DNA from: Balanoglossus misakiensis
Taxonomy: Eukaryota > Animalia > Hemichordata
Length of the DNA: 64,000 nt
NCBI GenBank assembly: GCA_040954595.2
Contig: CM082578.2
Coordinates: 3,640,831-3,704,830 of the forward strand
Direction of reading: 5' to 3'
The notes beneath the pieces are model-generated. The model made no database searches. It was not told the origin of the DNA and worked only from the letters and a program-made list of their open reading frames with translations. Made by a program: the position numbers and the translations under genes. Within the stretch, counting starts at the first letter, position 1, and each line of letters opens with the position of its first letter. Positions 16,025 through 51,720 of the stretch are shown in pieces.

Positions 16025-16083
16025 TTAAATAGGTACGGACATTGGAGGCATCCATCTTGTTTATGATCACGTGGTCTGCCCAG

Positions 16084-20300: not shown

Positions 20301-20421
20301 AAAGTACGTTGATCTTGGCTTGGGCGCGGGCGCAACAAATCTCTGGCGATTTTTTTCCTGAATTGTTTTGATGGGGTGTCGCTATATAGGCCCTAAGGCG
20401 TCTGTGGCCTTACATGACCTT

Positions 20422-20743
20422 TTGGCAAGTGCGTGATAGCCCAGGACCATGTGTTCTGAAGCATGGGGATTTCACCTAACTAAAATCCCACCTAATGTTG
20501 AACCTAAAAAAAGAACTTTTTAACAAAATCGTTCGACCATTTTTCCGTCATTTAATACTTATTTTTTCCGAATGTTTTTATATTTAATTTGAATTTTTAT
20601 TATATTAATACCGATTGAATATTGTTTGCTCATTTTATAGCGCTTTTAGCTATTTTTTTAGGTTCAACATTAGGGGGGATTTTAGTTAGGTTAGATCCCC
20701 ATGCTTTATAACACATGTTCCTGGGCTAGCACTCACTTGCCAA
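20422..20743. mobile_element. Foldback/MITE with ~90-bp imperfect inverted repeats
   Basis: TTGGCAAGTG...AAGCATGGGGAT..CCTAACTAAAATCCC.CCTAATGTTGAACCTAAAAAA mirrored at 20654-20743; no TSD identified. Confidence 0.7.
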
Positions 20744-20806
20744 GAAAATGGCGGACAACACGGGTGTGCCAAGAGATTTCAGCGAAGCCATAAATTCATG
20801 TAAAAA

Positions 20807-23800
20807 TTAAAGCTGCAAGCAGCGTTGGGGGGGCACAAGCGGTTCCCATGGTGACCAGCAAATTCCACGGCTGTATCTGCTGGGGATACCGAGACATGGG
20901 AAAGTAGGTCAAAGGTCACCTGAGGTCACCTCAAATTTGGGCAAAAAAATTGGACCCCATACTAGTCTAGATCCAACAAAAAACCAGACCCCTAGCCCTA
21001 TTGGTTCGCCTGCAATTAGGTATGCACATAATTAATGAGGTCTTGTGTAAGACTCCATTATGTGCTCAATACCCATAAAAGCCAGGGCTCTAACTGCTCT
21101 GGATGCTGAGATATGGGAAAGTAGATCAAAGGTCACCCAAGGTCACCCAAAATTAGGGCATAAAATTTTGACCCCAGACTGGGCCATGTCCAACCAATAC
21201 CAGACCTCTAGCCCTATTGGGTAGCATGGAATTAGATATGCAGAAATAGGTCAAAGGTCATTGCCAAAATTACCAAAATATTTGTGTCATGTCCTGGCAG
21301 CATTGGTACCCATGTCCACAAAATTCATGAATGTGGTGCTTTTACAAGAGGAGGTATGGGGAATATGCATATATAATTAGTTGTTTTAAAACTGGGTCAA
21401 AGGTCATGTGAAAATTGCCACGAAAAATTGTGACAACTTCCGGTCATATGATGACTCATATCCAAAAAAAGAATTTCCGTGCTGTCAACATTTTGGCTAC
21501 AAAACAGAATTTTCATTTTTCAATGGTTTTCCGAAAATCCAACATGGCCGCCATAATGATCGACCAATCACAGTGCGCTTCGCAAACTTGATAGACATAG
21601 GTTAGGTGACCACATATCCCAAATCCCGAGAATCGGTAACCGCTGGTTCTGGAGAAGAAGATTTTTAAAGTTTTAAGTATTTTTTAAGAAAAACAATTGT
21701 AGCAAAAAAACTTTATGTGTGACGTCATGATTTCAATGGGGTAAAATGATGGACAGAAGGTAGGCTACCTGCACACCAAATTTGAACTCGATCGGCCTTG
21801 TAGTTTTTGAGAAGGACTCATTTAACGGTTTTCAGGAAATCCAATATGGCCGCCAGGTCACATGACTAATTAAATATTCACGGGCCACTGCACGTCTACT
21901 CATTGGCCCCTATCACCCTACCAAGTTTCAGCCCCCTAGGTGCTGCGGTTTTCCAGATCTACCTGGCCGAATTTCTCGGAAGAAGAAGAAGAAGAATTAA
22001 AGCTGCAAGCAGCATTGTCCGGGCCCAAGCTCTATTATCTGATCAGATTATTAGATATGCACATAATTAATGAGTAGAAACATAATGCTGTGTTTTATCC
22101 CATGAAATATCAAGGTTATATCTATGTTTGGTGCTGATATAGTGTTAAGTAGGTCAAAGGTCACCCGAGGTCATCCAAAATTTGGGCAAAAATTTTTGAC
22201 CCAATACTGGTCCATGTCCAACAGAAACCAAACCTCTAGGTCTATTGGTTCATCTGTAATTAGGTATGCTAATATTTAATGAGGTCAGCAGAGGTCAAAG
22301 GGGTCATGAAAAGTAGCGAAATTTTTTGATCACATACAAATCCACATACATCAAAAACCAAAATCATAGCCCTATAGGTTAGCCTGTAATTAGATATGCA
22401 GAAAAAAATGATGTGTCAAAAGTAGGTCAAAGGTCATTGCCAGAATTACCAAAATAGTTGGGGTAGGTCCTGGCAGGGATGATACCAATGTGCACAAAAA
22501 TCAGAACTCTGGTACATTTAGAACACGTAGTATGAGCTATATATGCATATATGCAGGTTCTTAAAAATGTAGGTCAAAGGTCATGTGACAATTTCCAAAA
22601 TATTTGCAACATATTCTAGTCATATCACGACTCATATCCATAAAAAGAATTTGTATGCTATCTATTTTTAGACTAGAAAAATGATTTCTTAATTTTCGCT
22701 GGTTTTTACAAAATCCAATATGGCCGCCATAATCTTCGACCAATCACAACGCTCTTCGCAAACTTGATAGACATCAGTTAGGTGATGTCATACCCTAAAT
22801 CCCATGACTCGGTTATTGCCGGTTCTGGAGAAGAAGATTTTTGAAGATTTTACTGTACTTTTTCGAAAATCCAATATGGCGGCCAAAGTCACGTGACCGC
22901 TCAGGATTTTATTGTCAAACTTTGAAGGGCAGATGACATGTGTACCATACACCAAATTTGAACTTGATTGGCCCTGTGGTTTTTGAGAAGAAGCCATTTA
23001 AAGATTTTCAGAAAATCCAATATGGCCGCCAGGTCATGTGACTAATTAAATATTCACAAGCCACTGCACATCTACTCATTGACCTTGACCACTGTAGCAA
23101 GTTTGAGAAGTGTACCTGTAGCCGTTTCAGAGATCTAGGAGAGCAAAGATTGACATAAGAATAAAGAAAGAATTAAAGCTGCAAGCAGCATTGTCGGGCC
23201 CAAGCGCTGATCTTGAATTATATATGCACAGTATGAATGAGAAGAAACAGAATTTTCTATCGCATGTATTATCTCATGACATAACAAGGACTTATGTATT
23301 TTTGCTGCTGAAATAGAGTAAAGTAGGTCAAAGGTCACCTGAGGTCACCCAACATTTGGGCAAAAAAATTTGACCCTTGCTGGGCCATGTCCAACAAAAA
23401 CCAAAACTCTAGCTCTATTGGTTCGTCTGTAATTAGGTATGTGCATATTTAATGAGGTCAGCAGGTGTCACAGGTGACCCAAAAATGTGGCTTTACATTT
23501 TGGTCCCATCCTGCCAAATGCCAAGGCTGTATCTGCTCTGGATGCTAAGATATGCGAAAGTAGGTCAAAGGTCACCAGAGGTCATGCAACATTTGGGCAA
23601 AAAAATTTGACCCCATTCTGGTCCATTTCCAACAAAAACCAAACCACTAGCTTTATTGGTTCGCCTGTAATTAGCGATGCACATAATTAATGAGGTCAAC
23701 AGAGGTCAAAGGGGTCATGAAAAGTAGCAAAATATTTTGATCACACACTAATCCACATGCATCAAAAACCAAACGTCTAGCCCTATAGGTTAGCCAGGAA

Positions 23801-26800
23801 ATAGATATGCAGAAATAATAATGTGTGAAAAGTAGGTCAAAGGTCATGTGAAAAATCGCCAAAAATTTGTAACATATTTTAGTCATATGACGATTGATAT
23901 CCATGAAAAAAATTTGTATGCTATCAATTTTTAGACTAGGAAAAGGAATTTCAAGTTTTCACTGCTTTTTACAAAATCCAATATGGCCGCCATAATCTTC
24001 GACCAATCACAATGCTCTTTGCAAACTGGATAGACATCAGTGTAGTGACCATACTCCCCGAATCTTGCGACTCAGTTATTGCCCGTTCTGGAGAAGAAGA
24101 TTTTTGCAGTTTTACTATGGTTTTTCGAAAATCCAATATGGCCGCCATAATCTTCGACCAATCACAATGCTTCTTATCAAACTTGATAGACATCAGTTAG
24201 GTGACCACATACCCCAAATCCCGCTACTCGGTTATCGCCGGTTCTTGAGAAGAAGATTTTTGAAGTTTTAGTTGGATTTTTCGAAAATCCAATATGGCGG
24301 CCAAAGTCACGTGACCGCTCGAGATTTTATTATCAAACTTTGTTGGGCAGAGGCCATGTGTACTATGTACCAAATTTGAACTTGATTTGCCTTGTAGTTT
24401 TTGAGAAGAAGTCATTTACATTTTTTCAGAAAATCCAATATGGCCGCCAGGTCACGTGACTAATTAAATATTCACGAGCCACTGCACATCTACTCATTGA
24501 CCTTGACCACTGTAGTAAGTTTGAGCGGTGTACCTGCAGTAGTTTCAGAGATTTAGTTGGCCGAAGAATTGACAGGAGAATAAAGAAAGAAAAATTCCAA
24601 CGAAACCAATAGGGCCCAAGCGCTTGCGCGCGCTTGGGCCCTAAAAACTCCAACGAAACCAATACGGGCCCAAGCCTGGCTTGGCTTGGGCCCGTAATAA
24701 TAATAAAGAATTAAAGCTGCAAGCAGCATTGTCCGGGCCCAAGCTTTATTATCTGATCTGATTATTAGATATGCACATAATTAATGAGTAGAAACATAAT
24801 GCTGTGTTTTAGCAAATGAAATATCAAGGTTATATCTATGTTTGGTGCTGATATAGTGTTAAGTAGGTCAAAGGTCATCCAGAGGTCACCCACAATTTGG
24901 GCAGAAAATTTTGACCCATAGTGGTCCATGTCCATCAAAAACCAGACCTCTAGCCCTTTTGGTTAGCCCGGAATTAGGTATGCACATAAATAATGCGTAA
25001 AGCAGGTGTCACAGGTGAGCCAAAACTTTGGCTTTTCATTATGGCCCCATACCTCCAAATGCCCAGACTGTACCTGCTTTGGATGTCGAGATATGCAAAA
25101 ATAGGTCAAAGGTCATCTGAGGTCACCCAAAATTTGGGCAGAAAATTTTGACCCAAAGTAGTCCATGTCCAACAAAAACCAGACCTCTAGCCCTTTTGGT
25201 TAGCCCGGAATTAGGTATGCACATAAATAATGAGTTAAGCAGGTGTCACAGGTGACCCAAAACTTTGGCTTTTCATTATGGCCCCATACCTCCAAACGCC
25301 AAGGCTGTATCTGCTGTGGATGTCGAGATATGCAAAAGTAGGTCAAAGGTCACCCGAGGTCATCCAACATTTGGGCAAAATATTTTGACCCCATACTGAT
25401 CCATGTCCAGAAAAAAACAAACCTCTAGGTCATTTGGTTCATCTGTAATTAGGTATGCGCATATTTAATGAGGTCAGCAGAGGTCAAAGGGGTCATGAAA
25501 AGTAGCAAAAATTTTTGATCACATACAAAACCACATACATCAAAAACCAAACTTATAGCCCTATTGGTTAGCCTGGAATTAGATATGCAGAAAAATGATG
25601 CGTCAAAAGTAGGTCAAAGGTCATTGCCAAAATTACCAAAATATTTATAGCTTATTCTTGTCATATGATGATTCATATCCATAAAAAGAATTTCTGTGCT
25701 ATCAATTTTTAGGCTAGAAACAGAATTTTTACTTTTTAATCGTTGTTCACAAAATCCAATATGGCCGCCAAAATCTTCGACCAATCACAATGATCTTCGC
25801 AAACTTGATAGACATCTGTTTAATGACCACACACACCAAATTTTGTGACTCGGTTATCGCCGGTTCTTGAGAAGAAGATTTTTGAAATTTTACTAGGGTT
25901 TTTCGAAAATCCAATATGGCCGCCATAATCTTCGACCAATCACAATGATCTTCGCAAACTTGATAGACCTCAGTTTGGTGACCACATACCCCAAACCGCG
26001 TGACTCGGTTATCGCCGGTTCTGGAGAAGAAGATTTTTGAAATTTTGACCAGATTTCAGAAAAACAACTGTAGCAAAAAAACTGCAACATTGACAGCAAA
26101 ATATCCAATTACAAAAATGATGGGTAGAAGGTAGACTACCTGCACACCAAGTTTGAAGTCGATCTGACTTGTAGTTTCTGAGATCTGAGATTTGCATTTT
26201 TTCAGAAAATCTAATATGGCCGCCAGGTCACGTGACTAATTAAAAATTCAAGGGTTCAATGCACATCTACTCATTGACCTTGACCACTGTAGCAAGTTTG
26301 AGAAGTGTACCTGCAGTGGTGTCTGAGATCTAGAGCGACAAAGAATTGACACAAGAATAAAGAAAGAAGAAGAAAGAAGAAAGAAGGAAAGACAGAATTA
26401 AAGCTGCAAGCAGCATTGTCCGGGCCCAAGCTCTATTATCTGATCAGATTATTAGATATGCACATAATTAATGAGTAGAAACATAATGCTGTGTTTTATC
26501 CCATGAAATATCAAGGTTATATCTATGTTTGGTGTTGATATAGTGTTAAGTAGGTCAAAGGTCACCCAGAGGTCACCCACAATTTGGGCAGAAAATTTTG
26601 ATCCATAGTGGTCCATGTCCAACAAAAACCAGACCTCTAGCCCTTTTGGTTAGCCCGGAATTAGGTATGCACATAAATAATGAGTTAAGCAGGTGTCAAA
26701 GGTGACCCAAAACTTTGGCTTTTCATTATGGCCCCATACCTCCAAACGCCAAGGTTGTATCTGCTGTGGATGTCGAGATATGTAAAAGTAGGTCAAAGGT

Positions 26801-29800
26801 CACCCGAGGTCACCCAACATTTGGGCAAAATATTTTGACCCCATACTGGTCCATGTATAACAAAAACAAAACCTCTAGGTCTATTGGTTCATCATTAATT
26901 AGGTATGCGCATATTTAATGAGGTCACCAGAGGTCAAAGGGGTCATGAAAAGTAGCAACATTTTTTGATCACATACAAATCCACATACATCAAAAACCAA
27001 ACTTATAGCCCTATTGGTAAGCCTGGAATTAGATATGCAGAAAAATGATGCGTCAAAAGTAGGTCAAAGGTCATTGCCAAAATTACCAAAATATTTATAG
27101 CTTATTCTTGTCATATGATGATTCATATCCATAAAAAGAATTTCTGTGCTATCAATTTTTAGGCTAGAAAAGGAATTTTTACTTTTTAATCGTTTTTCAC
27201 AAAATCCAATATGGCCGCCATAATCTTCGACCAATCACATTCCCCTTTGCAAACTTGATAGACATCTCTTGAATGACCACACACACAAAATCTTGTGACT
27301 CGGTTATCGCCGGTTCTCGAGAAGAAGATTTTTGAAATTTTACTAGGGTTTTTCGAAAATCCAATATGGCCGCCATAATCTTTGACCAATCACAATGATC
27401 TTCGCAAACTTGGTAGACATCAGTTAGGTGACCACATACCCCAAACCGCGTGACTCAGTTATCACCGGTTCTGGAGAAGAAGATTTTTGAAAATTAAGCC
27501 AGATTTCAGAAAAAAAATTGTAGCAAAAAAACTGCAACATTTACAGCAAAATATCCAATTACAAAAATGATGGGTAAAAGGTAGACTACCTGCACACCAA
27601 ATTTGAAGTCGATCTGACTTGTAGTTTCTGAGATCTGAGATTTGCATTTTTTCAGAAAATCCAATATGGCCGCCAGGTCACGTGACTAATTAAAAATTCA
27701 CAGGTTCAATGCACGACTACTCATTGACCTTGACCACTGTAGCAAGTTTCAGAAGTGTACCTGCAGCGGTGTCTGAGATCTAGAGCGACAAAGAATTGAC
27801 ACAAGAATAAAGAAAGAAAGAAAGAAGAAAGAAGGAAAGACAGAAAAACCCCAACGAAACCAATAGGGCCCAAGCGCTGGTATGCGCTTGGGCCCTAAAA
27901 ACCCCAACGAAACCAATAGGGCCCAAGCGCTGGTATGCGCTTGGGCCCTAATTAAAGCTGCAAGCAGCATTGTCCGGGCCCAAGCTCTATTATCTGATCT
28001 GATTATTAGATATGCACATAATTAATGAGTAGAAACATAATGCTGTGTTTTATCCCATGAAATATCAAGATTATATCTATGTTTAGTGCTGATATAGTGT
28101 TAAGTAGGTCAGAGGTCACCCACAGTTTGTGCAGAAAATTTTGACCCATAGTGGTCCATGTCCAACAAAAACCAGACCTCTAACCCTTTGGTTATCCCGG
28201 AATTAGGTATGCACATAAATAATGAGTTAAGCAGGTGTCACAGGTGACCCAAAACTTTGGCTTTTCATTATGGCCCCATACCTTCAAACGCCAAGGCTGT
28301 ATCTGCTGTGGATGCTGAGATTTGCGAAATTAGGTCAAAGGTCACCAGAGGTCACCCAAAATTTGGGTAAAAAATTTTGACCCTATACTTGTCCTGTCCA
28401 ACAAAAACAAAACCTCTAGGTCTATTGGTTCACCTGTAATTAGGTATGCGCATATTTAATGAGGTCAGCAGAGGTCAAAGGGGTCATGAAAAGTACCAAA
28501 ATTTTTTGATCACATACAAATCCACATACATCAAAAACCAAACTTATAGCCCTATTGGTTAGCCTGGAATTAGATATGCAGAAAATTGATGCGTCAAAAG
28601 TAGGTCAAAGGTCATTGCCAAAATTACCAAAATATTTATAGCTTATTCTTGGCATATGATGATTCATATCCATAAAAAGAATGTCTGTGCTATCAATTTT
28701 TAGGCTAGAAAGGGAATTTTTATTTTGTAATCGTTTTTAAGAAAATCCAATATGGCCGCCATAATCTTCGACCAATCACATTCCTCTTCGCAAACTTGAT
28801 AGACATCTGTTGAATGACCACACACACAAAATCTTGTGACTCGGTTATCGCCGGTTCTTGAGAAGAAGATTTTTGAAATTTTACTAGGGTTTTTCGAAAA
28901 TCCAATATGGCCGCCATAATCTTCGACCAATCACAATGATCTTCGCAAACTTGATAGACATCAGTTAGGTGACCACATACCCCAAATCCCATGTCTCGGT
29001 TATCACCGGTTCTGGAGAAGAAGATTTTTGAAATTCAAGCCAGATTTCAGAAAAAAAATTGTAGCAAAAAAACTGCAACATTGACAGCATAATTTCCAAT
29101 TACAAAAATGTTTGACAGAAGGTAGTCTACCTGCACGCCAAATTTGAAGTCGATCTGACTTGTAGTTTCTGAGATCTGAGATTTGCATTTTTTCAGAAAA
29201 TCCAAGATGGCCGCCAGGTCATGTGACTAATTAAAAATTCATGGGTTCAATGCACAACTACTCATTGACCTTGACCACTGTAGCAAGTTTGAGAACTGTA
29301 CCTGCAGTGGTGTCTGAGATCTAGAGCGACAAAGAAATGACAGAAGAATAAAGAAAGAAAGAAAGAAAGAATTAAAGCTGCAAGCAGCATTGTCCGGGCC
29401 CAAGCTCTATTATCTGATCTAATTATTAGATATGCACATAATTAATGAGTAGAGACATAATGCTGTGTCTTATGCCATGAAATGTCAAGGTTATATCTAT
29501 GTTTTGTGGTGATATAGTGTTAAGTAGGTCAAAGGTCACCCAGAGGTCAACCACAATTTGGGCAGAAAATGTTGACCCATAGTGGTCCATGTCCAACAAA
29601 AACCAGACCTCTAGCCCTTTTGGTTATCCCGGAATTAGGTATGCACATAAATAATGAGTTAAGCACGTGTCACAGGTGACCCAAAACTTTGGCTTTTCAT
29701 TATGGCCCCATACCTCCAAACGCCAAGGCTGTATCTGCCGTAGATGTCGAGATATGCAAAAGTAGGTCAAAGGTCACCCGAGGTCACCCAACATTTGGGC

Positions 29801-32800
29801 AAAATATTTTGACCCCATACTGGTCCATGTATAACAAAAACAAAACCTCTAGGTCTATTGGTTCATCATTAATTAGGTATGCGCATATTTAATGAGGTCA
29901 CCAGAGGTCAAAGGGGTCATGAAAAGTAGCAAAATTTTTTGATCACATACAAATCCACATACATCAAAAACCAAACTTATAGCCCTATTGGTTAGCCTGG
30001 AATTAGATATGCAGAAAAATGATGCGTCAAAAGTAGGTCAAAGGTCATTGCCAAAATTACCAAAATATTTATAGCTTATTCTTGTCATATGATGTTTCAT
30101 ATCCGTAAAAAGAATTTCTGTGCTATCAATTTTTAGGCTAGAAAGGGAATTTTTACTTTTTAATCGTTTTTCACAAAATCCAATATGGCCGCCATAATCT
30201 TTGACCAATCACATTCCTCTTCGCAAACTTGATAGACATCTGTTTAATGACCACACACATCAAATCTTGTGACTCAGTTATCGCCGGTTCTTGAGAAGAA
30301 GATTTTTGAAATTTTACTAGGTTTTTTTTTAAATCCAATATGGCCGCCATAATCTTTGACCAATCACAATGATCTTCGCAAACTTGATAGACCTCAGCTT
30401 GGTGACCACATACCCCAAACCGCGTGACTCGGTTATCGCCGGTTCTGGAGAAGAAGATTTTTGAAATTTTGACCAGATTTCAGAAAAACAACTGTAGCAA
30501 AAAAACTGCAACATTGACAGCAAAATATCCAATTACAAAAATGATGGGCAGAAGGTAGACTACCTGCACACCAAATTTGAAGTCGATCTGACTTGTAGTT
30601 TCTGAGATCTGAGATTTGCATTTTTTCAGAAAATCCAATATTGCCGCCATGTCACGTGACTAATTAAGTATTCACAAGTCACTGCACATCTACTCATTGA
30701 CCTTGACCACTGTAGCAAGTTTGAGAACTGTACCTGCAGCGGTGTCTGAGATCTAGAGCGCGAAAGAAATGAACCAAGAATAAAGAAAGAAAGAAAGAAT
30801 TAAAGCTGCGAGCAGCATTGTTGGGCCCAAGCGCTGATCTTGAATTATATATGCACAGTATGAATGAGAAGAAACAGAATTTTCTATCAGATGTATTATC
30901 TCATGACATAACAAGGATGCGTGTATTTTTGCTGCTGAAATAGGGTGAAGTAGGTCAAAGGTCACCTGAGGTCACCCAACATTTGGGCAAAAAATTTTGA
31001 CCCCATACTGGTCCATGTCCAACAAAAACCAAAACTCTAGCTCTATTGGTTCGCCTGTAATTAGGTATGTGCATATTTAATGAGGTCAGCAGGTGTCACA
31101 GGTGACCCAAAAATGTGGCTTTACATTTTGGTCCCATCCTACCAAATGCCATGGCTGTATCTGCTCTGGATGCTGAGATATGCGAAAGTAGGTCAAAGGT
31201 CACCAGAGGTCACCCAACATTTGGGCAAAAAATTTTGATCCCATACTTGTCCATGTCCAACAAAAACCAAACCTCTAGCTCTATTGGTTCGCCTGTAATT
31301 AGCTATGCACATAATTAATGAGGTCAGCAGAGGTCAAAGGGGTCATGAAAAGTAGCAAAATATTTTGATCACACACTAGTCCACAAGCATCAAAAACCAA
31401 ACGTCTAGCCCTATAGGTTAGCCTGGAATTAGATATGCAGAAATAATAACGCGTGATAAGTAGGTCAAAGGTCATGTGAAAAATCGCCAAAAAATTGTTA
31501 CATATTTTAGTCACATGACGATTGATATCCATAAAAAGAATTTGTATGCTATCAATTTTTAGACTAGAAAAAGGAATTTCAATTTTTCACTGCTTTTTAC
31601 AAAATCCAATATGGCCGCCATAATCTTTGACCAATCACAATGCTCTTTGCAAACTTGATAGACATCAGTGTAGTGACCATACTCCCCGAATCTTGTGACT
31701 CAGTCATCGCCCGTTCTGGAGAAGAAGATTTTTGGAGTTTAACTATGGTTTTTCGAAAATCCAATATGGCCGCCATAATCGTCGACCAATCACAATGATC
31801 TTCGCAAACTTGATAGACATCACTTAGGTGACCACATACCCCAAACCCCGTGTCTCAGTTATCATCGGTTCTGGAGAAGAAGATTTTTGAAATTTAAGCC
31901 AGATTTCAGAAAAAAAATTGTAGCAAAAAAACTGCAACATTGACAGCAAAATTTCCAATGACAAAAATGATGGGTAGAAGGTAGTCTACCTGCATGCCAA
32001 ATTTGAAGTCAATCTGACTTGTAGTTTCTGAGATCTGAGATTTGTATTTTTTCAGAGAATCCAATATGGCCGCCAGGTCACGTGACTAATTAAGTATTCA
32101 CATGTCACTGCACATCTACTCATTGACCTTGACCACTGTAGCAAGTTTGAGAAGTGTACCTGCAGTAGTTTCAGAGATCTCGTTGGCCGAAGAATTGACA
32201 CAAGAATAAAGAAAGAAAGAAAGAAAGAAAGAAAGAATTAAAGCTGCAAGCAGCATTGTCGGGCCCAAGCGCTGATCTTTAATTATATATGCACAGTATG
32301 AATGAGAAAAAACAGAATTTTCTATCGTATGTATTATCTGATGACATAACAAGGATGTGTGTAGTTTTGCTGCTGAAATAGGGTGAAGTAGGTCAAAGGT
32401 CACCAGAGGTCACGCAACATTTGGGCAAAAAATGTTGATCCCATACTGGTCCATGTCCAACAAAAAACAAAACTCTAGCTCTATTGGTTCGCCTGTAATT
32501 AGGTATGTGCATATTTAATGAGGTCAGCAGGTGTCACAGGTGACCCAAAAATGTGGCTTTAAATTATGGTCCCATCCTACCAAATGCCATGGCTGTATCT
32601 GCTCTGGATGCTGAGATATGCGAAAGTAGGTCAAAGGTCACCAGAGGTCACCCAACATTTGGGCAAAAAATTTTGATCCCATACTGGTCCATGTCCAACA
32701 AAAACCAAACCTCTAGCTCTATTGGTTCGCCTGTAATTAGCTATGCACATAATTAATGAGGTCAGCAGAGGTCAAAGGGGTCATGAAAAGTAGCAAAATA

Positions 32801-33833
32801 TTTTGATCACACACTAATCCACATGCATCAAAAACCAAACGTCTAGCCCTATAGGTTAGCCTGGAATTAGATATGCAGAAATAATAATGTGTGAAAAGTA
32901 GGTCAAAGGTCATGTGAAAAATCGCCAAAAATTTGTAACATATTGTAGTCATATGACGAATGATATCCATTAAAAGAATTTGTATGCTATCAATTTTTAT
33001 ACTAGAAAAAGGAATTTTAATTTTTCACTGCTTTTTACAAAATCCAATATGGCCGCCATAATCTTCGACCAATCACAATGCTCTTTGCAAACTTGATAGA
33101 CATCAGTGTAGTGACCATACTCCCCGAATCTTGCGACTCAGTCATCGCCCGTTCTGGAGAAGAAGATTTTTGGAGTTTAACTATGGTTTTTCGAAAATCC
33201 AATATGGCCGCCATAATCTTCGACCAATCACAATGATCTTCGCAAACTTGATAGACATCAGTTAGGTGACCACATACCCCAAACCTTGTGTCTCGCTTAT
33301 CACCGGTTCTGGAGAAGAAGATTTTTGAAATTTAAGCTAGATTTCAGAAAAAAAATTGTAGCAAAAAAACTGCAACATTGACAGCAAAATTTCCAATTAC
33401 AAAAATGATGGGTAGAAGGTAGTCTACCGGCATGCCAAATTTGAAGTCGATCTGACTTGTAGTTTCTGAGATCTGAGATTTGATTTTTTTCAGAAAATCC
33501 AATATGGCCGCCAGGTCACGTGACTAATTAAGTATTCACAAGTCACTGCACATCTACTCATTGACCTTGACCACTGTAGCAAGTTTGAGAAGTGTACCTG
33601 CAGCGGTGTCTGAGATCTAGAGCGACAAAGAAATGACACAAGAATAAAGAAAGAAAGAAAGCCGGAAAGAAAAATTCCAACGAAACCAATAGGGCCCAAG
33701 CGCTTGCGTGCGCTTGGGCCCTAAAAACCCCAACGAAACCAATAGGGCCCAAGCGCTTGCGTGCGCTTGGGCCCTAAAAATTCCAACAATAACAATGGGG
33801 GCACAAGCCGCCTGAGGGCGCTTGTGCCCCCAA
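20807..33833. mobile_element. Nested cluster 1 of non-autonomous Helentron/Helitron2 (HINE-like) elements: 9 units inside the boundaries of one outer element
   Basis: Opening end TTAAAGCTGCAAGCAGC (hairpin) plus subterminal IR at 20807, 21997, 23173, 24711, 26398, 27952, 29372, 30800, 32238; closing palindromic ends (GGGCCCAAGC..GCTTGGGCCC-TAA/-GTAA) finishing at 24644, 24697, 27898, 27951, 33724, 33777, and a variant at 33833; no TSDs, insertion in A-runs. Confidence 0.88.
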
Positions 33834-34301
33834 ATATTTACAGAAAATGATTAAATAAAATCTAATTCATGTACAGATAAATATTTATACAACAAGCAGC
33901 TCCATTTTAAATGAGTTTTGTGCGTGCTTTGTATGCATTTATAGAATTCAAATAAAAAGTGCCTTTTATGCATAATACGAGCAAACATGAAAGCAGGGGA
34001 AATGAAATAACCAAATAACGCAGCAAATTTATCAATAAAAATAACCCGAAAAAAGTCAGCTGCAATCAACTGATCAGTGATACTACAAGTCTTAAAACAA
34101 TACTACATGTACTATTATAATGCTTTGTTATTGTACACAGAGTGAGTTTGATAATGTCATACGCTTTTTACGACTGAAGTCACTCAAAGTAAAAATCCTG
34201 AACCATCCAAAGTCTTATCAAACTACACAAGTTGAGTTCATTGCACCACATAACTTGCTTAGGCAAAGCTATCAACCTGAGGGCTGGGGTCCAAATTAAT
34301 A

Positions 34302-37300
34302 TTAAAGCTGCAAGCAGCATTGTCGGGCCCAAGCGCTGATCTTGAATTATATATGCACAGTATGAATGAGAAGAAACAGAATTTTCTATCGGATATATTA
34401 TCTCATGACATAACAAGGATGTGTGTATTTTTGCTGCTGAAATAGGGTGAAGTAGGTCAAAGGTCACCTGAGGTCACCCACAATTTGGGCAATTTTTTTT
34501 ACCCATACTGGTCCATGTCCAACAAAAACCAAAAGTCTAGCTCTATTGGTTCGCCTGTAATTAGGTATGTGCATATTTAATGAGGTCAGCAGGTGTCACA
34601 GGTGACCCAAAAATGTGGCTTTACATTTTGGTCCCATCCTACCAAATGCCATGGCTGTATCTGCTCTGGATGCTGAGATATGCGAAAGTAGGTCAAAGGT
34701 CACCAGAGGTCACCCAACATTTGGGCAAAAAATGTTGATCCCATACTGGTCCATGTCCAACAAAAACCAAACCTCTAGCTCTATTGGTTCGCCTGTAATT
34801 AGCTATGCACATAATTAATGAGGTCAGCAGAGGTCAAAGGGGTCATGAAAAGTAGCAAAATATTTTGATCACACACTAATCCACATTCATCAAAAACCAA
34901 ACGTCTAGCCCTATAGGTTAGCCTGGAATTAAATATGCAGAAATAATAACGCGTGATAACTAGGTCAAAGGTCATGTGAAAAATCGCCAAAAAATTGTAA
35001 CATATTTTAGTCACATGACGATTGATATCCATAAAAAGAATTTGTATGCTATCAATTTTTAGACTAGAAAAAGGAATTTCAATTTTTCACTGCTTTTTAC
35101 AAAATCCAATATGGCCGCCATAATTTTCGACCAATCACAATGTTCTTTGCAAACTTGATAGACATCAGTGTAGTGACCATACTCCACGAATCTTGCGACT
35201 CAGTTATTGCCTGTTCTGGAGAAGAAGATTTTTTGAGCTTTACTATGGTTTTTCGAAAATCCAATATGGCCGCCATAATCTTTGACCAATCACAATGATC
35301 TTCGCAAACTTGATAGACATCAGTTAGGTGACCACATACCACAAACCGCGTGACTCGGTCATCACCGGTTCTGGAGAAGAAGACTTTTGAAATTTTGACC
35401 AGATTTCAGAAAAACAACTGTAGCAAAAAAACTGCAACATTGACAGCAAAATATCCAATTACAAAAATGATGGGTAGAAGGTACACTACCTGCACGCCAA
35501 ATCTGAAGTCGATCTGACTTGTAGTTTCTGAGATCTGAGATTTGCATTTTTTCAGAAAATCCAATATGGCCGCCAGGTCACGTGACTAATTAAGTATTCA
35601 CAAGTCACTGCACATCTACTTATTGACCTTGACCACTGTAGCAAGTTTGAGCAGTGTACCTGCAGTAGTTTCAGAGATCTCGTTGGCCGAAGAATTGACA
35701 CAAGAAAAAAGAAAGAAAGAAAGAAAGAATTAAAGCTGCGAGCAGCATTGTCGGGCCCAAGCGCTGATCTTGAATTATATATGCACAGTATGAATGAGAA
35801 GAAACAGAATTTTTTATCGGATGTATTATCTCATGACATAACAAGGATGTGTGTATTTTTGCTGCTGAAATAGGGTGAAGTAGGTCAAAGGTCACCTGAG
35901 GTCACCCACAATTTGGGCAATTTTTTTTACCCATACTGGTCCATGTCCAACAAAAACCAAAACTCTAGCTCTATTGGTTCGCCTGTAATTAGGTATGTGC
36001 ATATTTAATGAGGTCAGCAGATGTTACAGGTGACCCAAAAATGTGGCTTTACATTTTGGTCCCATCCTACCAAATGCCATGGCTGTATCTGCTCTGGATG
36101 CTGAGATATGCGAAAGTAGGTCAAAGGTCACCAGAGGTCACCCAACATTTGGGCAAAAAATTTTGATCCCATACTGGTCCATGTCCAACAAAAACCAAAC
36201 CTCTAGCTCTATTGGTTCGCCTGTAATTAGCTATGCACATAATTAATGAGGTCAGCTGAGGTCAAAGGGGTCATGAAAAGTAGCAAAATATTTTGATCAC
36301 ACACTAATCCACATTCATCAAAAACCAAACGTCTAGCCCTATAGGTTAGCCTGGAATTAGATATGCAGAAATAATAATGCGTGATAAGTAGGTCAAAGGT
36401 CATGTGAAAAATCGCCAAAAAATTGTATAATATTTTAGTCACATGACGATTGATATCCATAAAAAGAATTTGTATGCTATCAATGTTTAGACTAGAAAAA
36501 GGAATTTCAATTTTTCACTGCTTTTTACCAAATCCAATATGGCCGCCATAATCTTCGACCAATCACAATGCTCTTTGCAAACTTGATAGACATCAGTGTA
36601 GTGACCATACTCCCCGAATCTTGCAACTCAGTCATCTCCCGTTCTGGAGAAGAAGATTTTTGGAGTTTAACTATGGTTTTTCGAAAATCCAATATGGCCG
36701 CCATAATCTTCGACCAATCACAATGATCTTCGCAAACTTGATAGACATCAGTTAGGTGACCACATACCCCAAACCCCGTGTCTCGGTTATCACCGGTTCT
36801 GGAGAAGAAGATTTTTGAAATTTAAGCCAGATTTCAGAAAAAAAATTGTAGCAAAAAAACTGCAACATTGACAGCAAAATTTCCAATTACAAAAATGATG
36901 GGTAGAAGGTAGTCTACCTGCATGCCAAATTTGAAGTCGATCTGACTTGTAGTTTCTGAGATCTGAGATTTGCATTTTTTTCAGAAAATCCAATATGGCC
37001 GCCAGGTCACGTGACTAATTAAGTATTCACAAGTCACTGCACATCTACTCATTGACCTTGACCATTGTAGCAAGTTTGAGAAGTGTACCTGCAGTAGTTT
37101 CAGAGATCTCGTTGGCCGAAGAATTGACACAAGAATAAAGAAAGAAAGAAAGAAAGAAAGAATTAAAGCTGCAAGCAGCATTGTCCGGGCCCAAGCTCTA
37201 TTATCTGATCTGATTATTAGATATGCACATAATTAATGAGTAGAAACAAAATGCTGTGTTTTATCCCATGAAATATCAAGATTATATCTATGTTTAGTGC

Positions 37301-40300
37301 TGATATAGTGTTAAGTAGGTCAGAGGTCACCCACAGTTTGGGCAGAAAATTTTGACCCATAGTGGTCCATGTTCAACAAAAACCAGACCTCTAACCCTTT
37401 TGGTTAGCCCGGAATTAGGTATGCACATAAATAATGAGTTAAGCAGGTGTCACAGGTGACCCAAAACTTTGGCTTTTCATTATGGCCCCATACCTCCAAA
37501 CGCCAAGGCTGTATCTGCTGTGGATGCTGAGATTTGCGAAATTAGGTCAAAGGTCACCAGAGGTCACCCAAAATTTGGGTAAAAAATTTTGACCCTATAC
37601 TTGTCCTGTCCAACAAAAACAAAACCTCTAGGTCTATTGGTTCATCTGTAATTAGGTATGCGCATATTTAATGATGTCAGCAGAGGTCAAAGGGGTCATG
37701 AAAAGAACCAAAATTTTTTGATCACATGCAAATCCACATACATCAAAAACCAAACTTATAGCCCTATTGGTTAGCCTGGAATTAGATATGCAGAAAATTG
37801 ATGCGTCAAAAGTAGGTCAAAGGTCATTGCCAAAATTACCAAAATATTTATAGCTTATTCTTGTTATATGATGATTCATATCCATAAAAAGAATTTCTGT
37901 GCTATCAATTTTTAGGCTAGAAAGGGAATTTTTACTTTTTAATCGTTTTTCACAAAATCCAATATGGCCGCCATAATCTTCGACCAATCACATTCCTCTT
38001 CGCAAACTTGATAGACATCTGTTGAATGACCACACACACAAAATCTTGTGACTCGGTTATCGCCGGTTCTCGAGTAGAAGATTTTTGAAATTTTACTAGG
38101 GTTTTTTGAAAATCCAATATGGCCGCCATAATCTTCAACCAATCACAATGATCTTCGCAAACTTGATAGACATCAGTTAGGTGACCACATACCCCAAACC
38201 CCATGTCTCGGTTATCACCGGTTCTGGAGAAGAAGATTTTTGAAATTTAAGCCAGATTTCAGAAAAAAAATTGTAGCAAAAAAACTGCAACATTGACAGC
38301 ATAATTTCCAATTACAAAAATGTTTGACAGAAGGTAGTCTACCTGCACGCCAAATTTGAAGTCGATCTGACTTGTAGTTTCTGAGATCTGAGATTTGCAT
38401 TTTTTCAGAAAATCCAAGATGGCCGCCAGGTCATGTGACTAATTAAAAATTCATGGGTTCAATGCACGACTACTCATTGACCTTGACCACTGTAGCAAGT
38501 GTGAGAACTGTACCTGCAGTGGTGTCTGAGATCTAGAGCGACAAAGAAATGACAGAAGAATAAAGAAAGAAAGAAAGAAAGATTAAAGCTGCAAGCAGCA
38601 TTGTCCGGGCCCAAGCTTTATTATCTGATCTGATTATTAGATATGCACATAATTAATGAGTAGAAACATAATGCTGTGTTTTAGCAAATGAAATATCAAG
38701 GTTATATCTATGTTTGGTGCTGATATAGTGTTAAGTAGGTCAAAGGTCATCCAGAGGTCACCCACAATTTGGGCAGAAAATTTTGACCCATAGTGGTCCA
38801 TGTCCATCAAAAACCAGACCTCTAGCCCTTTTGGTTAGCCCGGAATTAGGTATGCACATAAATAATGCGTAAAGCAGGTGTCACAGGTGAGCCAAAACTT
38901 TGGCTTTTCATTATGGCCCCATACCTCCAAATGCCCAGACTGTACCTGCTTTGGATGTCGAGATATGCAAAAATAGGTCAAAGGTCATCTGAGGTCACCC
39001 AAAATTTGGGCAGAAAATTTTGACCCAAAGTAGTCCATGTCCAACAAAAACCAGACCTCTAGCCCTTTTGGTTAGCCCGGAATTAGGTATGCACATAAAT
39101 AATGAGTTAAGCAGGTGTCACAGGTGACCCAAAACTTTGGCTTTTCATTATGGCCCCATACCTCCAAACGCCAAGGCTGTATCTGCTGTGGATGTCGAGA
39201 TATGCAAAAGTAGGTCAAAGGTCACCCGAGGTCATCCAACATTTGGGCAAAATATTTTGACCCCATACTGATCCATGTCCAGAAAAAAACAAACCTCTAG
39301 GTCATTTGGTTCATCTGTAATTAGGTATGCGCATATTTAATGAGGTCAGCAGAGGTCAAAGGGGTCATGAAAAGTAGCAAAAATTTTTGATCACATACAA
39401 AACCACATACATCAAAAACCAAACTTATAGCCCTATTGGTTAGCCTGGAATTAGATATGCAGAAAAATGATGCGTCAAAAGTAGGTCAAAGGTCATTGCC
39501 AAAATTACCAAAATATTTATAGCTTATTCTTGTCATATGATGATTCATATCCATAAAAAGAATTTCTGTGCTATCAATTTTTAGGCTAGAAACAGAATTT
39601 TTACTTTTTAATCGTTGTTCACAAAATCCAATATGGCCGCCAAAATCTTCGACCAATCACAATGATCTTCGCAAACTTGATAGACATCTGTTTAATGACC
39701 ACACACACCAAATTTTGTGACTCGGTTATCGCCGGTTCTTGAGAAGAAGATTTTTGAAATTTTACTAGGGTTTTTCGAAAATCCAATATGGCCGCCATAA
39801 TCTTCGACCAATCACAATGATCTTCGCAAACTTGATAGACCTCAGTTTGGTGACCACATACCCCAAACCGCGTGACTCGGTTATCGCCGGTTCTGGAGAA
39901 GAAGATTTTTGAAATTTTGACCAGATTTCAGAAAAACAACTGTAGCAAAAAAACTGCAACATTGACAGCAAAATATCCAATTACAAAAATGATGGGTAGA
40001 AGGTAGACTACCTGCACACCAAGTTTGAAGTCGATCTGACTTGTAGTTTCTGAGATCTGAGATTTGCATTTTTTCAGAAAATCTAATATGGCCGCCAGGT
40101 CACGTGACTAATTAAAAATTCAAGGGTTCAATGCACATCTACTCATTGACCTTGACCACTGTAGCAAGTTTGAGAAGTGTACCTGCAGTGGTGTCTGAGA
40201 TCTAGAGCGACAAAGAATTGACACAAGAATAAAGAAAGAAGAAGAAAGAAGAATTAAAGCTGCAAGCAGCATTGTCCGGGCCCAAGCTCTATTATCTGAT

Positions 40301-43300
40301 CTGATATTAGATATGCACATAATTAATGAGTAGAAACATAATGCTGTTTTATCCCATGAAATATCAAGGTTATATGTATGTTTGGTGCTGTTAAAGTGTT
40401 AAGTAGGTCAAAGGTCACCCAACATTTGGGCAGAAAATTTTGACCCATAGTGGTCCATGTCCAACAAAAACCAGACCTCTAGCCCTTTTGGTTAGCCTGG
40501 AATTAGGTATGCACATACATAATGTGTAAAGCAGGTGTCACAGGTGACCCAAAACTTTGGCTTTTCATTATGGCCCCATACCTCCAAATGACAAGGCTGT
40601 ACCTGCTTTGGATGCCGAGATATGCAAAAGTACGTCAAAGGTCATCTGAGGTCATCCAAAATTTGGGCAGAAAATTTTGACCCATAGTTGTCCATGTCCA
40701 TCAAAAAACAGACCTCTAGCCCTTTTGGTTAGCCTAGAATTAGGTATGCACATAATTAATGAGTTAAGCAGGTGTCACAGGTGACCCAAAACTTTGGCTT
40801 TTCATTATGGCCCCATACCTCCAAACGCCAAGGCTGTATCTGCTGTGGATGTCAAGATATGCAAAAGTAGGTCAAAGGTCATCTGAGGTCATCCAAAATT
40901 TGGGCAGAAAATTTTGACCCATAGTGGTCCATGTCCATCAAAAAACAGACCTCTAGCCCTTTAGGTTAGCCTAGAATTAGGTATGCACATAATTAATGAG
41001 TTAAGCAGGTATCACAGGTGACCCAAAACTTTGGCTTTTCATTATTGCCCCATACCTCCAAACGCCAAGGCTGTATCTGCTGTGGATGTCAAGATATGCA
41101 AAAGTAGGTCAAAGGTCACCCGAGGTCACCCAAAATTTGGGCAAAATATTTTGACCCCATACTGGTCCATGTATAACAAAAACAAAACTTCTAGGTCTAT
41201 TGGTTCATCTGTAATTAGGTATGTGCATATTTAATGAGGTCACCAGAGGTCAAAGGGGTCATGAAAAGTAGCAAAATTTTTTGATCACATACAAATCCAC
41301 ATACATCAAAAACCAAACTTATAGCCCTATTGGTTAGCCTGGAATTAGATATGCAGAAAAATCATGCGTCAAAAGTAGGTCAAAGGTCATTGCCAAAATT
41401 ACCAAAATATTTATAGCTTATTCTTGGCATATGATGATTCATATCCGTAAAAAGAATTTCTGTGCTATCAATTTTAAGGCTAGAAAGGGAATTTTTACTT
41501 TTTAATCGTTTTTCACAAAATCCAATATGGCCGCCATAATCTTCGACCAATCACATTCCTCTTCGCAAACTTGATAGACATCTGTTTAATGACCACACAC
41601 ACCAAATCTTGTGACTCAGTTATCGCCGGTTCTTGAGAAGAAGATTTTTGAAATTTTACTATGGTTTTTCGAAAATCCAATATGGCTGCCATAATCTTCA
41701 ACCAATCACAATGATCTTCGCAAACTTGATAGACATCAGTTAGGTGACCACATACCCCAAACCGCGTGACTCGGTTATCACTGGTTCTGGAGAAGAAGAT
41801 TTTTGAAATTTAAGCCAGATTTCAGAATAAAAATTGTAGCAAAAAATTGCAACTTTGTCAGTATAATTTCCAATTACAAAAATGATTGCAAGAAGGTAGT
41901 CTACCAGCATGCCAAATTTGAAGTCGATCTGACTTGTAGTTTCTGAGATCTGAGATTTGCATTTTTTCAGAAAATCCAAGATGGCCGCCAGGTCATGTGA
42001 CTAATTAAAAATTCAAGGGTTCAATGCACGACTACTCATTGACCTTGACCACTGTAGCAAGTTTCAGAAGTGTACCTGCAGCGGTGTCTGAGATCTCGTG
42101 GGTCAAAGAATTGACACAAGAATAAAGAAAGAAAGAAAGTATTAAAGCTGCAAGCAGCCTTGTCCGGGCCCAAGCTCTATTATCTGATCTGATATTAGAT
42201 ATGCACATAATTAATGAGTAGAAACATAATGCTGTTCTATCCCATGAAATATCAAGGTTATATCTATGTTTGGTGCTGATAAAGTGTTAAGTAGGTCAAA
42301 GGTCACCCAGAGGTCACCCAACATTTGGGCAGAAAATTTTAACCCATAGTGGTCCATGTCCAACAAAAACCAGACCTCTAGCCCTTTTGGTTAGCCTGGA
42401 ATTAGGTATGCACATAAATAATGTGTAAAGCAGGTGTCACAGGTGACCCAAAACTTTGGCTTTAGCTTTTCATTATGGCCCCATACCTCCAAATGCCAAG
42501 GCTGTACCTGCTTTGGATGCCGAGATATGCAAAAGTAGGTCAAAGGTCATCTGAGGTCATCCAAAATTTGGGCAGAAAATTTTGACCCATAGTGGTCCAT
42601 GTCCAACAAAAACCAGACCTCTAGCCCTTTTGGTTAGCCTATAATTAGGTATGCACATAATTAATGAGTTAAGCAGGTGTCACAGGTGACCCAAAACTTT
42701 GGCTTTTCATTATGGCCCCATACCTCCAAACGCCAAGGCTGTATCTGCTGTGGATGTCGAGATATGCAAAAGTAGGTCAAAGGTCACCTGAGGTCACCCA
42801 ACATTTGGGCAAAATATTTTGACCCCATACTGGTCCATGTATAACAAAAACAAAACCTCTAGGTCTATTGGTTCATCTGTAATTAGGTATGTACATATTT
42901 AATGAGGTCAGCAGAGGTCAAAGGGGTCATGAAAAGTAGCAAAATTTTTGGATCACATACAAATCGACATACATCAAAAACCAAACTTATAGCCCTATTG
43001 GTTAGCCTGGAATTAGATATGCAGAAAAATCATGCGTCAAAAGTAGGTCAAAGGTCATTGCCAAAATTACCAAAATATTTATAGCTTATTCTTGTCATAT
43101 GATGATTCATATCCATAAAAAGAATTTCTGTGCTATCAATTTTTAGGCTAGAAAGGGAATTTTTACTTTTAATCGTTTTTCACAAAATCCAATATGGCCG
43201 CCATAATCTTCGACCAATCACATTCCTCTTCGCAAACTTGATAGACATCTGTTTAGTGACCACACACACCAAATCTTGTGACTCGGTTATCGCCGGTTCT

Positions 43301-46300: not shown

Positions 46301-47240
46301 AGGGTTTTTCGAAAATCCAATATGGCCGCCATAATCTTCGACCAATCACAATGATCTTCGCAAACTTGATAGACCTCAGTTTGGTCACCACATACCCCAA
46401 ACCCCGTGTCTCGGTTATCACCGGTTCTGGAGAAGAAGATTTTTGAAATTTAAGCCAGATTTCAGAAAACAACTGTAGCAAAAAAACTGCAACATTGACA
46501 GCAAAATATCCAATTACAAAAATGATGGGCAGAAGGTAAACTACCAGCACACCAAATCTGAAGTAAATCTGACTTGTAGTTTCTGAGATCTGAGATTTGC
46601 ATTTTTTCAGAAAATCCAATATGGCCGCCATGTCACGGTCAAAAATCATTGCCAAAATTACCAAAATATTTGGGGTAGGTCCTGGCAGGGGTGATACCAA
46701 TGTGCACAAAAATCAGAACTCTGGTGCATTTAGAACAGGTAGAATGAGCTATATATGCATCCCTATAGGTTAGCCTGGAAATAGATATGCAGAAATAATA
46801 ATGTGTGAAAAGTAGGTCAAAGGTCAGGTGAAAAATCGCCAAAAATTTGTAACATATTTTAGTCATATGACGATTGATATCCATAAAAAGAATTTGCATG
46901 CTATCAATGTTTAGACTAGAAAAAGGAATTTCAATTTTTCACTGCTTTTTACAAACTCCAATATGGCCGCCATATTTTTCGACCAATCACAATGCTCTTT
47001 GCAAACCTGATAGACATCAGTGTAATGACCATACTCCCCGAATCTTGCGACTCAGTTATCTCCAGTTCTGGAGAAGATTGTTAGAGTTTTACTATGGTTT
47101 TTCGAAAATCCAATATGGCCGCCATAATCTTCGACCAATCACAATGTTCTACGCAAACTTAGTAAAAATTGTGGCAAAAAAACTGGAACATGGACAGCAT
47201 AATGTCCAATTACAAAAATGATGGGTAAAAGGTAGACTAC
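34302..47240. mobile_element. Cluster 2 of the same HINE-like family: 8 units plus a rearranged tail
   Basis: Opening ends at 34302, 35730, 37163, 38583, 40254, 42142, 43937, 45356; only two closing ends (43883, 43936); last unit breaks at ~46636 into a patchwork of internal modules ending ~47240. Confidence 0.88.
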
Positions 47241-47574
47241 AAACTATTATGATTACACACTAATCCACATGCATCATTACACATGCAGTAGTTGAGGGCG
47301 AAATACAAAGTTAGAATGGACACATTATGTGATTGGTTAATTAGTCACAAGTGATGTGTGGATTGGTTGTAAATAGTTGAAAATTTTCATCTGAATCAGT
47401 GAAAGTTTTGACAGAGGTATTTGTTTGGCTATAAACATATCTTTAATTAAGTGAACAGATCTGTATATTACATTCGTTAACTGTGAAGAGGATGTAGTAT
47501 AGATATACCAATATATTGAGCTGTATAAACAGAGTGTTAACCCAACACGTCTTTGGGGTATGAATCTGAAAGCA

Positions 47575-51450: not shown

Positions 51451-51720
51451 TGTTTTCCAGCAGAAAAAAAGTGTCTCTGTGATAGTTTGTGTGTATATGT
51501 GTCTATTTGTATACAAGCATGGGGATATGTGTGTATTATGTGTGGCTGTTGAATTACAACTTTGTTCGGACTTAGTTTCTATAAATCACTTCTGTCTGTT
51601 AAAAGTTCCACTACTTTTTACTGGTTATAATCACTAGTGATGTGATTTGATGAGAAGGTTATCTGAAGTCTGGTGGTGAAAGTAAAAACCTAACTAGACA
51701 GTATATTTGCTTTGTTCCAG

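What the first reader, a model, noticed from the sequence alone, without database searches (positions are those of the whole stretch)
20807..33833. Russian-doll Helentron nest: the outer element's two ends are 13 kb apart and inner ends close like brackets
Seen: only unit 1 has the variant subterminal IR GGGGGCACAAGC (20829-20840), and the only matching closing palindrome GGGGGCACAAGC..GCTTGTGCCCCC is at 33797-33831, after eight other units. Inner ends also pair last-in-first-out by subtype. Units opening GGGCCCAAGCGCTGATC (23173; 30800, 32238) are closed first by GCGCTTGCGYGCGC-loop ends (24644; 33724, 33777). Units 21997, 24711 and 26398 are closed by other loop types (24697, 27951, 27898). 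Inference: the array grew by repeated insertion of elements into earlier copies, not by plain tandem amplification, and it records insertion order. Units 27952 and 29372 lack closing ends, so deletion or unequal exchange also acted. Nested Helitrons are known in general; whether this ordered form is described I cannot check.
Basis: partly seen in the sequence, partly recalled or inferred. Interest (0 to 1): 0.85.

Follow-up and report, generated by a model that had tools for sequence, protein, structure and literature searches.

The report
Transposons landing in their own microsatellite
Nine small non-coding mobile elements fill 13 kb, most of them sitting one inside another just behind an earlier copy's hairpin end, likely because each copy carries a T-rich microsatellite that is its own family's favourite landing site; related elements in other animals show the same stacking, so satellite-like arrays can likely grow by repeated self-insertion.

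Summary
The brackets are real. The variant repeat occurs only at unit 1's two ends. All five stacked heads sit in one register, and no body is interrupted. Nesting by self-insertion is the best reading. New here: relatives in other animals' DNA share this 3' end, and show head-to-tail joins (14 of 100 ends), insertions into another copy's microsatellite and stacked heads. A target profile from 73 independent flanks ranks the used sites in each element's top 1%. Weaker than claimed: two heads are missing, bodies are mosaic and there is no age gradient with depth. An allele without the head at 33833 does not continue into 20806. Insertion order is therefore only partly recorded. Self-insertion was proposed for fungal Helitron2s in 2016, and this scan noted at least seven such nests elsewhere in this genome. 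New variant of a known kind.

The parts
20807..21996 (-). Unit 1 (outermost): 3' end with short hairpin and variant 3' ATIR (20829-20840), plus body up to its microsatellite
   Evidence: distinct subtype, 66-73% identical to the other units
21997..23172 (-). Unit 2 body, inserted in unit 1's microsatellite
23173..24644 (-). Unit 3, complete element, inserted 53 nt inside unit 2's 5' end
24645..24697 (-). Displaced 5' head of unit 2 (CTGG-type loop)
   Evidence: the pairing is inferred
24698..24710 (-). 13-bp remnant of unit 1's microsatellite between two insertion sites
   Evidence: inferred from the restored microsatellite
24711..26397 (-). Unit 4 body; identical over 1671 bp to unit 38583 of the second array
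26398..27898 (-). Unit 5, complete element, inserted 53 nt inside unit 4's 5' end
27899..27951 (-). Displaced 5' head of unit 4 (GGTAT loop); joined head-to-tail to unit 6
   Evidence: rejoined flank equals the intact tail of units 26398 and 42142
27952..29371 (-). Unit 6 body, no head assigned; 98.3% identical to 37163
29372..30799 (-). Unit 7 body, no head assigned
30800..32237 (-). Unit 8 body
32238..33724 (-). Unit 9, complete element (innermost)
33725..33777 (-). Displaced 5' head assigned to unit 8 by position and loop type
33778..33833 (-). 5' head of unit-1 type with the variant ATIR hairpin (33797-33831)
33834..34301 (.). 468-bp low-copy spacer between the two arrays; contigs exist that lack the element ends on both sides
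34302..47276 (-). Second array of the same family: 8 3' ends, 2 heads (ending 43883, 43936), scrambled from about 46630
51694..59055 (+). Uninterrupted Helentron (HLE2) transposase frame, 2453 aa stop to stop: OTU, DUF6570, Rep, PIF1 helicase, endonuclease. Candidate mobiliser only; link not shown
   Evidence: no family ends found near it

Best explanation
This is a nest of non-coding Helitron2/HINE-type elements, all on one strand, that likely grew because new copies were pasted again and again into the T-rich microsatellite just behind the 5' hairpin of earlier copies. Shown: the anatomy, the clean T|T joins without target duplication, and that every internal join lies in the microsatellite or beside a head. 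Inferred: a RepHel transposase supplied in trans copies an element as a single strand and pastes it at a TT that begins a roughly 15-20 nt T-rich tract. The element's own (TTTC)n tract is its best such site, most often the T5 run 53 nt from the 5' end. Each arrival pushes the host's 53-nt head outward and brings a new site. The old site also stays usable, which gives head-to-tail joins in which the left unit (plus strand) would be the later one. Headless units likely come from copying that starts at a 3' end and stops early or at the first head met, or from later unequal exchange. The array therefore keeps a partial order only.
For: 13 of 17 3' ends in the window follow another copy's microsatellite, 2 follow a head and 2 follow outside flank. 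No end motif lies within 22.5 kb of bodies. 5 of 5 stacked heads are in one register; a plain T5 preference gives about 2e-4. Flanks rejoin to the intact word in 4 of 5. The 3 GGTAT heads match the 3 bodies ending in the same distinctive tail. All 8 inner heads are compatible with the A/B type of their last-in-first-out partner (1/56 if random; see the limit in the Against line). A profile from 73 independent flanks of related elements puts all 12 used sites scored in the top 1% of positions of their unit. Contigs of one sample show stacked-head and head-to-tail joints at depth 250-6100, against about 60-250 on the spacer. In other hosts' DNA, 14 of 100 3' ends (9 of 92 distinct flanks) abut a head, 3 lie in another copy's microsatellite, and L013 and L034 have stacked heads. 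Literature: T|T or TTTT|T/C targets, and 3'-initiated, 5'-truncated Helitron2 copies (PMC3627910).
Against: Two heads are missing in array 1 and six in array 2. Bodies are mosaic: trees of the two ends of the units disagree. Loop type follows the far end of the body, not the adjacent part. The CTGG loop has no intact example in the window, and like types are neighbours, so 1/56 overstates the test. No trend of private differences with depth. The profile gives the microsatellite zone only 4-61% (median 31%) of a unit's weight, so sequence alone does not explain 13 of 13; it uses one flank and other hosts' families. The allele without the head at 33833 does not continue into 20806. No transposase is tied to these ends. 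No reads span the array.
Confidence: 0.72

Rival explanations
1. Same nesting, but the site is chosen mainly by the transposase binding a resident 5' hairpin/ATIR and cutting at the nearest T-run on either side of it; the microsatellite only supplies the T's. This can act together with the best explanation.
For: 5 of 5 stacked heads use one position 20 nt from the hairpin although the microsatellite offers several equally scoring sites. The profile leaves most weight outside the zone. Joins occur on both sides of the hairpin. In other hosts two inverted insertions lie just inside a head (L042, L050), and 9 of 92 distinct flanks abut a head, more than re-use of one T-rich site among very many would suggest.
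Against: Three insertions in the window lie further into the microsatellite (hosts 20807, 38583). All 17 copies face one way, as the strand-specific T-tract predicts. Composite copying could multiply a few joins.
Confidence: 0.35
2. One or a few nests formed once; the array then grew mainly by unequal exchange, conversion and slippage among bodies and among 53-bp heads, so the brackets balance only roughly and order is not recorded.
For: Two heads are 100% identical in tandem (27844-27951). Mosaic bodies. More 3' ends than heads (17 to 9). Empty-site mismatch.
Against: 3 of 5 stacks join heads of different type. The 24711/38583 identity block starts exactly at the element's 3' end, not at a random point. 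Neighbouring bodies are 66-97% identical and no two-unit block is repeated. The same joins occur in other hosts.
Confidence: 0.12
3. Rolling-circle concatemers: one element copied several times round a circle and inserted as a head-to-tail array.
For: Exact head-to-tail joins at 27951/27952 and 43936/43937. Helitron1 circles with joined ends are shown in PMC4778049 (passages).
Against: Only 2 of 15 internal joins are head-to-tail, neighbours are not identical, and concatemers cannot put heads in stacks apart from their bodies.
Confidence: 0.04
4. Assembly artefact from collapsed or shuffled repeats.
For: No contig spans the array. One 1.67-kb block is identical between the arrays. The left flank does not match the empty allele.
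Against: Units differ by 2-34% apart from that pair. Each join type is seen in independent contigs and in other hosts.
Confidence: 0.03

Closest known systems
HINE / DINE-1 non-autonomous Helentrons (Thomas et al. 2014, PMC4067079: passages and section 6; oyster Cg_HINE, PMC7492417: passages and section 9)
   Same: 5' subTIR with adjacent inverted repeat, microsatellite behind it, central tandem repeats (155 and 237 bp), 3' subTIR and short palindrome, T|T insertion in T-rich DNA, no target duplication.
   Different: The passages read describe dispersed copies, clusters and tandem arrays, not deep nests at one position inside the element's own microsatellite.
Helitron2 (Bao and Jurka 2013, PMC3627910: passages) = HLE2 (HELIANO, PMC11417382: passages)
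   Same: Asymmetric TIRs, hairpins at both ends, insertion after a T-run, excess of 3' ends as in CRe-1/2/3.
   Different: No nesting reported in the passages read ('nested' 0 hits in PMC3627910). The target duplications reported for truncated copies cannot be seen inside a microsatellite.
FoHeli elements of Fusarium oxysporum (Chellapan et al. 2016, PMC5148889: passages and section 10)
   Same: Multiple short 5' termini (31-85 nt) explained by self-insertion near the 5' end; a three-copy case in Metarhizium acridum.
   Different: There: several positions, and extra 5' ends with one 3' end. Here: matched pairs of ends, one dominant position, up to five levels if the headless units count, and an excess of 3' ends (17 to 9), which fits copying from the 3' end rather than their 5'-start model.
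Zepp LINE clusters of Coccomyxa (PMC3446292: passages)
   Same: Clusters of nested copies of one element, 1.5-42 kb.
   Different: Retrotransposon, one cluster per chromosome; unrelated chemistry.

Membership tests
HINE / non-autonomous HLE2 (Helitron2-Helentron) | Asymmetric subterminal inverted repeats of about 8-15 bp | tested here: met
   10-12 bp ATIR at both ends, with a co-varying variant in unit 1
HINE / non-autonomous HLE2 (Helitron2-Helentron) | 5' ATIR pairs with downstream bases into a hairpin | tested here: met
   4 of 4 heads folded, z -6.2 to -7.6
HINE / non-autonomous HLE2 (Helitron2-Helentron) | Short palindrome between 3' ATIR and 3' end | tested here: inconclusive
   A 5-bp-stem palindrome is present by inspection and the same motif is found in other hosts (it was the search pattern), but it folds no better than shuffles (z 0.05 and 1.40)
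HINE / non-autonomous HLE2 (Helitron2-Helentron) | Insertion between T and T in T-rich DNA, no target duplication | tested here: met
   Inner joins rejoin to the intact word in 4 of 5; 82 of 100 related ends flanked by TT on the element strand. The outer empty site was not recovered
HINE / non-autonomous HLE2 (Helitron2-Helentron) | Microsatellite behind the 5' module and central tandem repeats | tested here: met
   (TTTC)n tracts, 155- and 237-bp repeats
HINE / non-autonomous HLE2 (Helitron2-Helentron) | Non-coding, dispersed, high copy | tested here: met
   No frame of 120 aa or more in 20807-33833; contig depth far above the spacer's and loose ends into other flanks
Helentron proper (endonuclease-encoding) | An autonomous partner with the same ends that encodes Rep, helicase and endonuclease | tested here: inconclusive
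   Such an ORF lies at 51694-59055 but no family ends were found around it; no genome held; two searches found nothing
Canonical Helitron1 | 5'-TC and CTRR-3' ends, A|T insertion, no inverted repeats | tested here: not met
   Ends are 5'-TTAGGG and TTTAA-3' with ATIRs
Rolling-circle mobility of this family | Single-strand or circular intermediate made by RepHel | not testable with these tools
   Needs a transposition assay; head-to-tail joins in contigs do not show circles

The most novel reading that the evidence does not exclude
A clade of animal Helitron2/Helentron elements is built to target itself. The transposase is drawn to resident 5' hairpins and pastes into a landing tract that the element carries. 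Nests then travel as composite units copied from an outer 3' end, sometimes through a head and on into host DNA (which would explain the 468-bp spacer whose original flanks are absent here). Satellite-like blocks in many animal genomes would be insertion stacks with a readable partial chronology.
Probability: 0.3. Interest if true: 0.72.

Novelty: new variant of a known kind. Interest (0 to 1): 0.5.

Why it matters
HINE/DINE-1-like elements are said in the papers read to prefer TT in T-rich DNA and to cluster, and self-insertion was proposed from leftover 5' ends in fungi. Here both ends survive in place. That shows the intermediate, and points to a simple cause: the conserved microsatellite of these elements may be their own landing pad. 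It also bears on which end starts replication in HLE2s (excess of 3' ends). It gives a route from transposon to satellite-like array that differs from unequal crossing-over, and it warns that repeat annotation will read such stacks as tandem repeats. The intact transposase frame nearby and the defined target make the idea testable.

Tried and rejected
No genome is held for this window, so solo copies could not be collected. Empty-site test: contigs of runs X1-X3 (one sample, holding 54%, 46% and 12% of the words of 14000-21900, so probably another haplotype) lack the head at 33833 and the 3' end at 34302. Neither loose flank is in the window (local alignment no better than shuffles). The 57 bp at 33956-34012 are skipped by contigs in all three runs. 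No reads or contigs span the array. Age gradient: private differences 0.56-1.47% at depth 2, 0.63-3.96% at depth 3, 0.84% at depth 4 and 1.13% at depth 5 (unit 21997, 14.7%, set aside as a subtype effect; unit 1 not scored), so no trend. Unit 1's divergence reflects a high-copy subtype, not shown age. Ends for the transposase ORF: none found. Exact family end in metagenome contigs: 0 hits; relaxed pattern in viral contigs: 0; transposase in viral contigs: none. Of 13 hits in prokaryote genomes, 12 look like chance matches and one (L124) like animal DNA. My first hairpin scans in the loci were too strict and were replaced by named motifs, which find only the types already seen. A functional ATIR constraint on body/head pairing was considered and dropped: all inner heads pair equally with A and B 3' ends (inspection). 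Look-ups of earlier findings by sequence and by nearby place gave nothing.

Full report
Observation. A motif scan of both strands found 17 copies of one end (starting TTAAAGCTGC on the plus strand) and, with the ninth read from the sequence, 9 hairpin ends, all in one orientation and all between 20807 and 47276. The variant repeat GGGGGCACAAGC occurs only at 20829, 33797 and (inverted) 33820; 0.16 matches are expected and 0 of 100 shuffles reach three. The four hairpin ends folded are strong (z -6.2 to -7.6). The small palindrome at the other end is not better than shuffles.

What the units are. On the minus strand each unit reads: 5'-TT, inverted repeat folded into a hairpin, a 20-nt spacer, (TTTC)n microsatellite, a body with 155- and 237-bp repeats, the second inverted repeat, a short palindrome, TTTAA-3'. 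This is the HINE/Helitron2 plan in PMC4067079 (passages; section 6), PMC3627910 (passages) and PMC7492417 (passages; section 9). No frame of 120 aa or more lies in array 1. The host is an animal by inference from the transposase's relatives.

Evidence for nesting. Of 17 3' ends, 13 follow another copy's microsatellite, 2 follow a head and 2 follow outside flank. No end lies in 22.5 kb of bodies (16 units counted, 45356 left out as broken). All 5 head-head joins are in one register, 53 nt from the 5' end. Rejoining the flanks gives the intact word GAAAAAnnCCAAC in 4 of 5, with one mismatch in the fifth and no duplicated target. Three of the five stacks join heads of different type, so slippage of one head does not explain them. 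Unit 1's microsatellite is restored across two sites by the 13-bp remnant at 24698-24710. The three GGTAT heads match the three bodies that end in the same distinctive tail. The parse is 1[2[3]. 4[5] 6 7 8[9]], with 6 and 7 headless.

Independent DNA. Contigs of one sample (X1-X3) show CTGG heads followed by another head's spacer at depth 250-6100 (short sides of 21-23 letters, tables cut). They also show a unit-1-type head followed directly by a 3' end at depth 1259. The spacer itself lies at about 60-250. Depth is no copy number, but these joins are clearly common elsewhere in the genome. 100 element-like ends passed a filter; they look like animal DNA from several sources. Fourteen (9 of 92 distinct flanks) abut another copy's head. 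Three lie in another copy's microsatellite (L051, L081, L103). L013 and L034 have two stacked heads, and L042 and L050 are inverted insertions just inside a head. These loci were chosen for their 3' ends and are short, so rates are rough.

Why that site. From 73 distinct flanks of those relatives (self-joins and (TAA)n flanks left out) I built a 20-nt profile: 57% A on the plus strand, i.e. a T-rich tract beyond the 3' end. All 12 used sites scored fall in the top 1% of positions of their unit, both orientations (0-26 better sites of 2192-3616). But the microsatellite zone holds only 4-61% (median 31%) of the weight, against 3.9% for a bare TT rule. So the element carries its own best target, and something more, either the unscored other flank or binding at the hairpin, likely sharpens the choice. 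Since an insertion leaves the T-rich tract next to the new 3' end, a second hit gives a head-to-tail join with the newcomer on the left. That would make 24711 later than 27952 (inferred), in line with 24711 having an identical twin.

Evidence against a full chronology. Heads are fewer than 3' ends (7 of 9; 2 of 8 in the second array, which is broken at about 46630). Trees of the two ends of the units disagree, so bodies are mosaics, and private differences do not grow outward. Units 24711 and 38583 are identical over 1671 bp from the 3' end into the microsatellite. 38583 and 42142 share a tail, so head 43836 could belong to either. Headless units fit copying from the 3' end with early stop, as reported for CRe elements (PMC3627910), copying of a composite up to the first head, or unequal exchange; I cannot separate these.

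Empty site. Contigs in all three runs lack the head at 33833 and the 3' end at 34302; one 720-bp contig in X3 lacks both. So both ends are polymorphic or paralogous insertions. Neither loose flank is in the window, and the window's left flank is itself repeated DNA. The predicted join of 20806 to 33834 was therefore not seen. A deletion between two unit-1-type copies, or transport of nest plus spacer as a composite, would explain this. X1 shows three versions of the spacer, which fits a paralog or a pooled sample. One sample and filtered contigs limit the test.

Transposase. 51694-59055 is an uninterrupted 2453-aa frame with OTU, DUF6570, Helitron_like_N, PIF1 and endonuclease domains. HUH-like, tyrosine and Walker A motifs are visible in the translation (motif identity from my own knowledge). 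Its best relatives are 67-70% identical over residues 950-1500, in Haliotis and Saccoglossus, then fishes. DUF6570 marks HLE2 (PMC11417382, passages). No ends of this family flank it, so it is a candidate only.

Prior knowledge. PMC5148889 (passages; section 10) reports FoHelis with repeated 31-85-nt 5' termini and proposes self-insertion, with a three-copy case in Metarhizium. PMC4067079 mentions tandem and adjacent Helitrons. PMC4778049 (passages) shows circles with joined ends and no local hopping for a Helitron1. Nested Zepp clusters are described in PMC3446292 (passages). Eight searches (listings only for the papers not named) showed no title or abstract start on deep position-specific HINE nests or on the microsatellite as a self-carried target. 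Subscription journals and Repbase are not covered. I opened no supplements; Table S6 and Figures S11-S13 of PMC5148889 may bear on novelty. This scan's notes list seven similar nests in this genome; they are unreviewed and gave me leads to three papers.

Verdict. A real nest of non-autonomous HLE2 elements, best explained by repeated self-insertion into the element's own microsatellite (0.72). The order is only partly readable. New variant of a known kind; interest 0.5.

Noticed in passing
window 34302-47276: Second array of the same family with 8 3' ends and 2 heads; scrambled body fragments from about 46630; no right flank matching the empty allele within the window.
   Followed up: partly
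window 51694-59055 (+): Intact Helentron transposase frame, preceded by a 205-bp tandem array (49349-51372) and followed by partial duplications of its 3' region (58938-61202); its ends were not found.
   Followed up: partly
window 24711-26381 and 38583-40253: Two units identical over 1671 bp, starting exactly at the element's 3' end, in different arrays with different neighbours.
   Followed up: yes
window 33956-34012: 57 bp of the spacer skipped by contigs in all three runs; at least three versions of the spacer in run X1.
   Followed up: partly
window 5236-6267 (-): Single long frame with an MFS_1 transporter domain, containing an acidic low-complexity stretch.
   Followed up: no
window 1048-1786 and 15289-16029: 740-bp inverted duplicate, 90% identical; probably two copies of another repeat.
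   Followed up: no
window 19967-20743: 30/60-bp minisatellite and a 320-bp fold-back sequence just left of the nest; repeated elsewhere by contig depth.
   Followed up: no
L031:540-660 and L104: Element from another host whose head spacer is nearly the same as unit 1's, joined head-to-tail to a 3' end.
   Followed up: partly
L091:230-330: A lone 5' head with no body behind it, followed by a 3' end.
   Followed up: no
L124:5001-5026 (-): An element-like 3' end in a contig of a bacterial MAG; looks like animal DNA in the bin.
   Followed up: no
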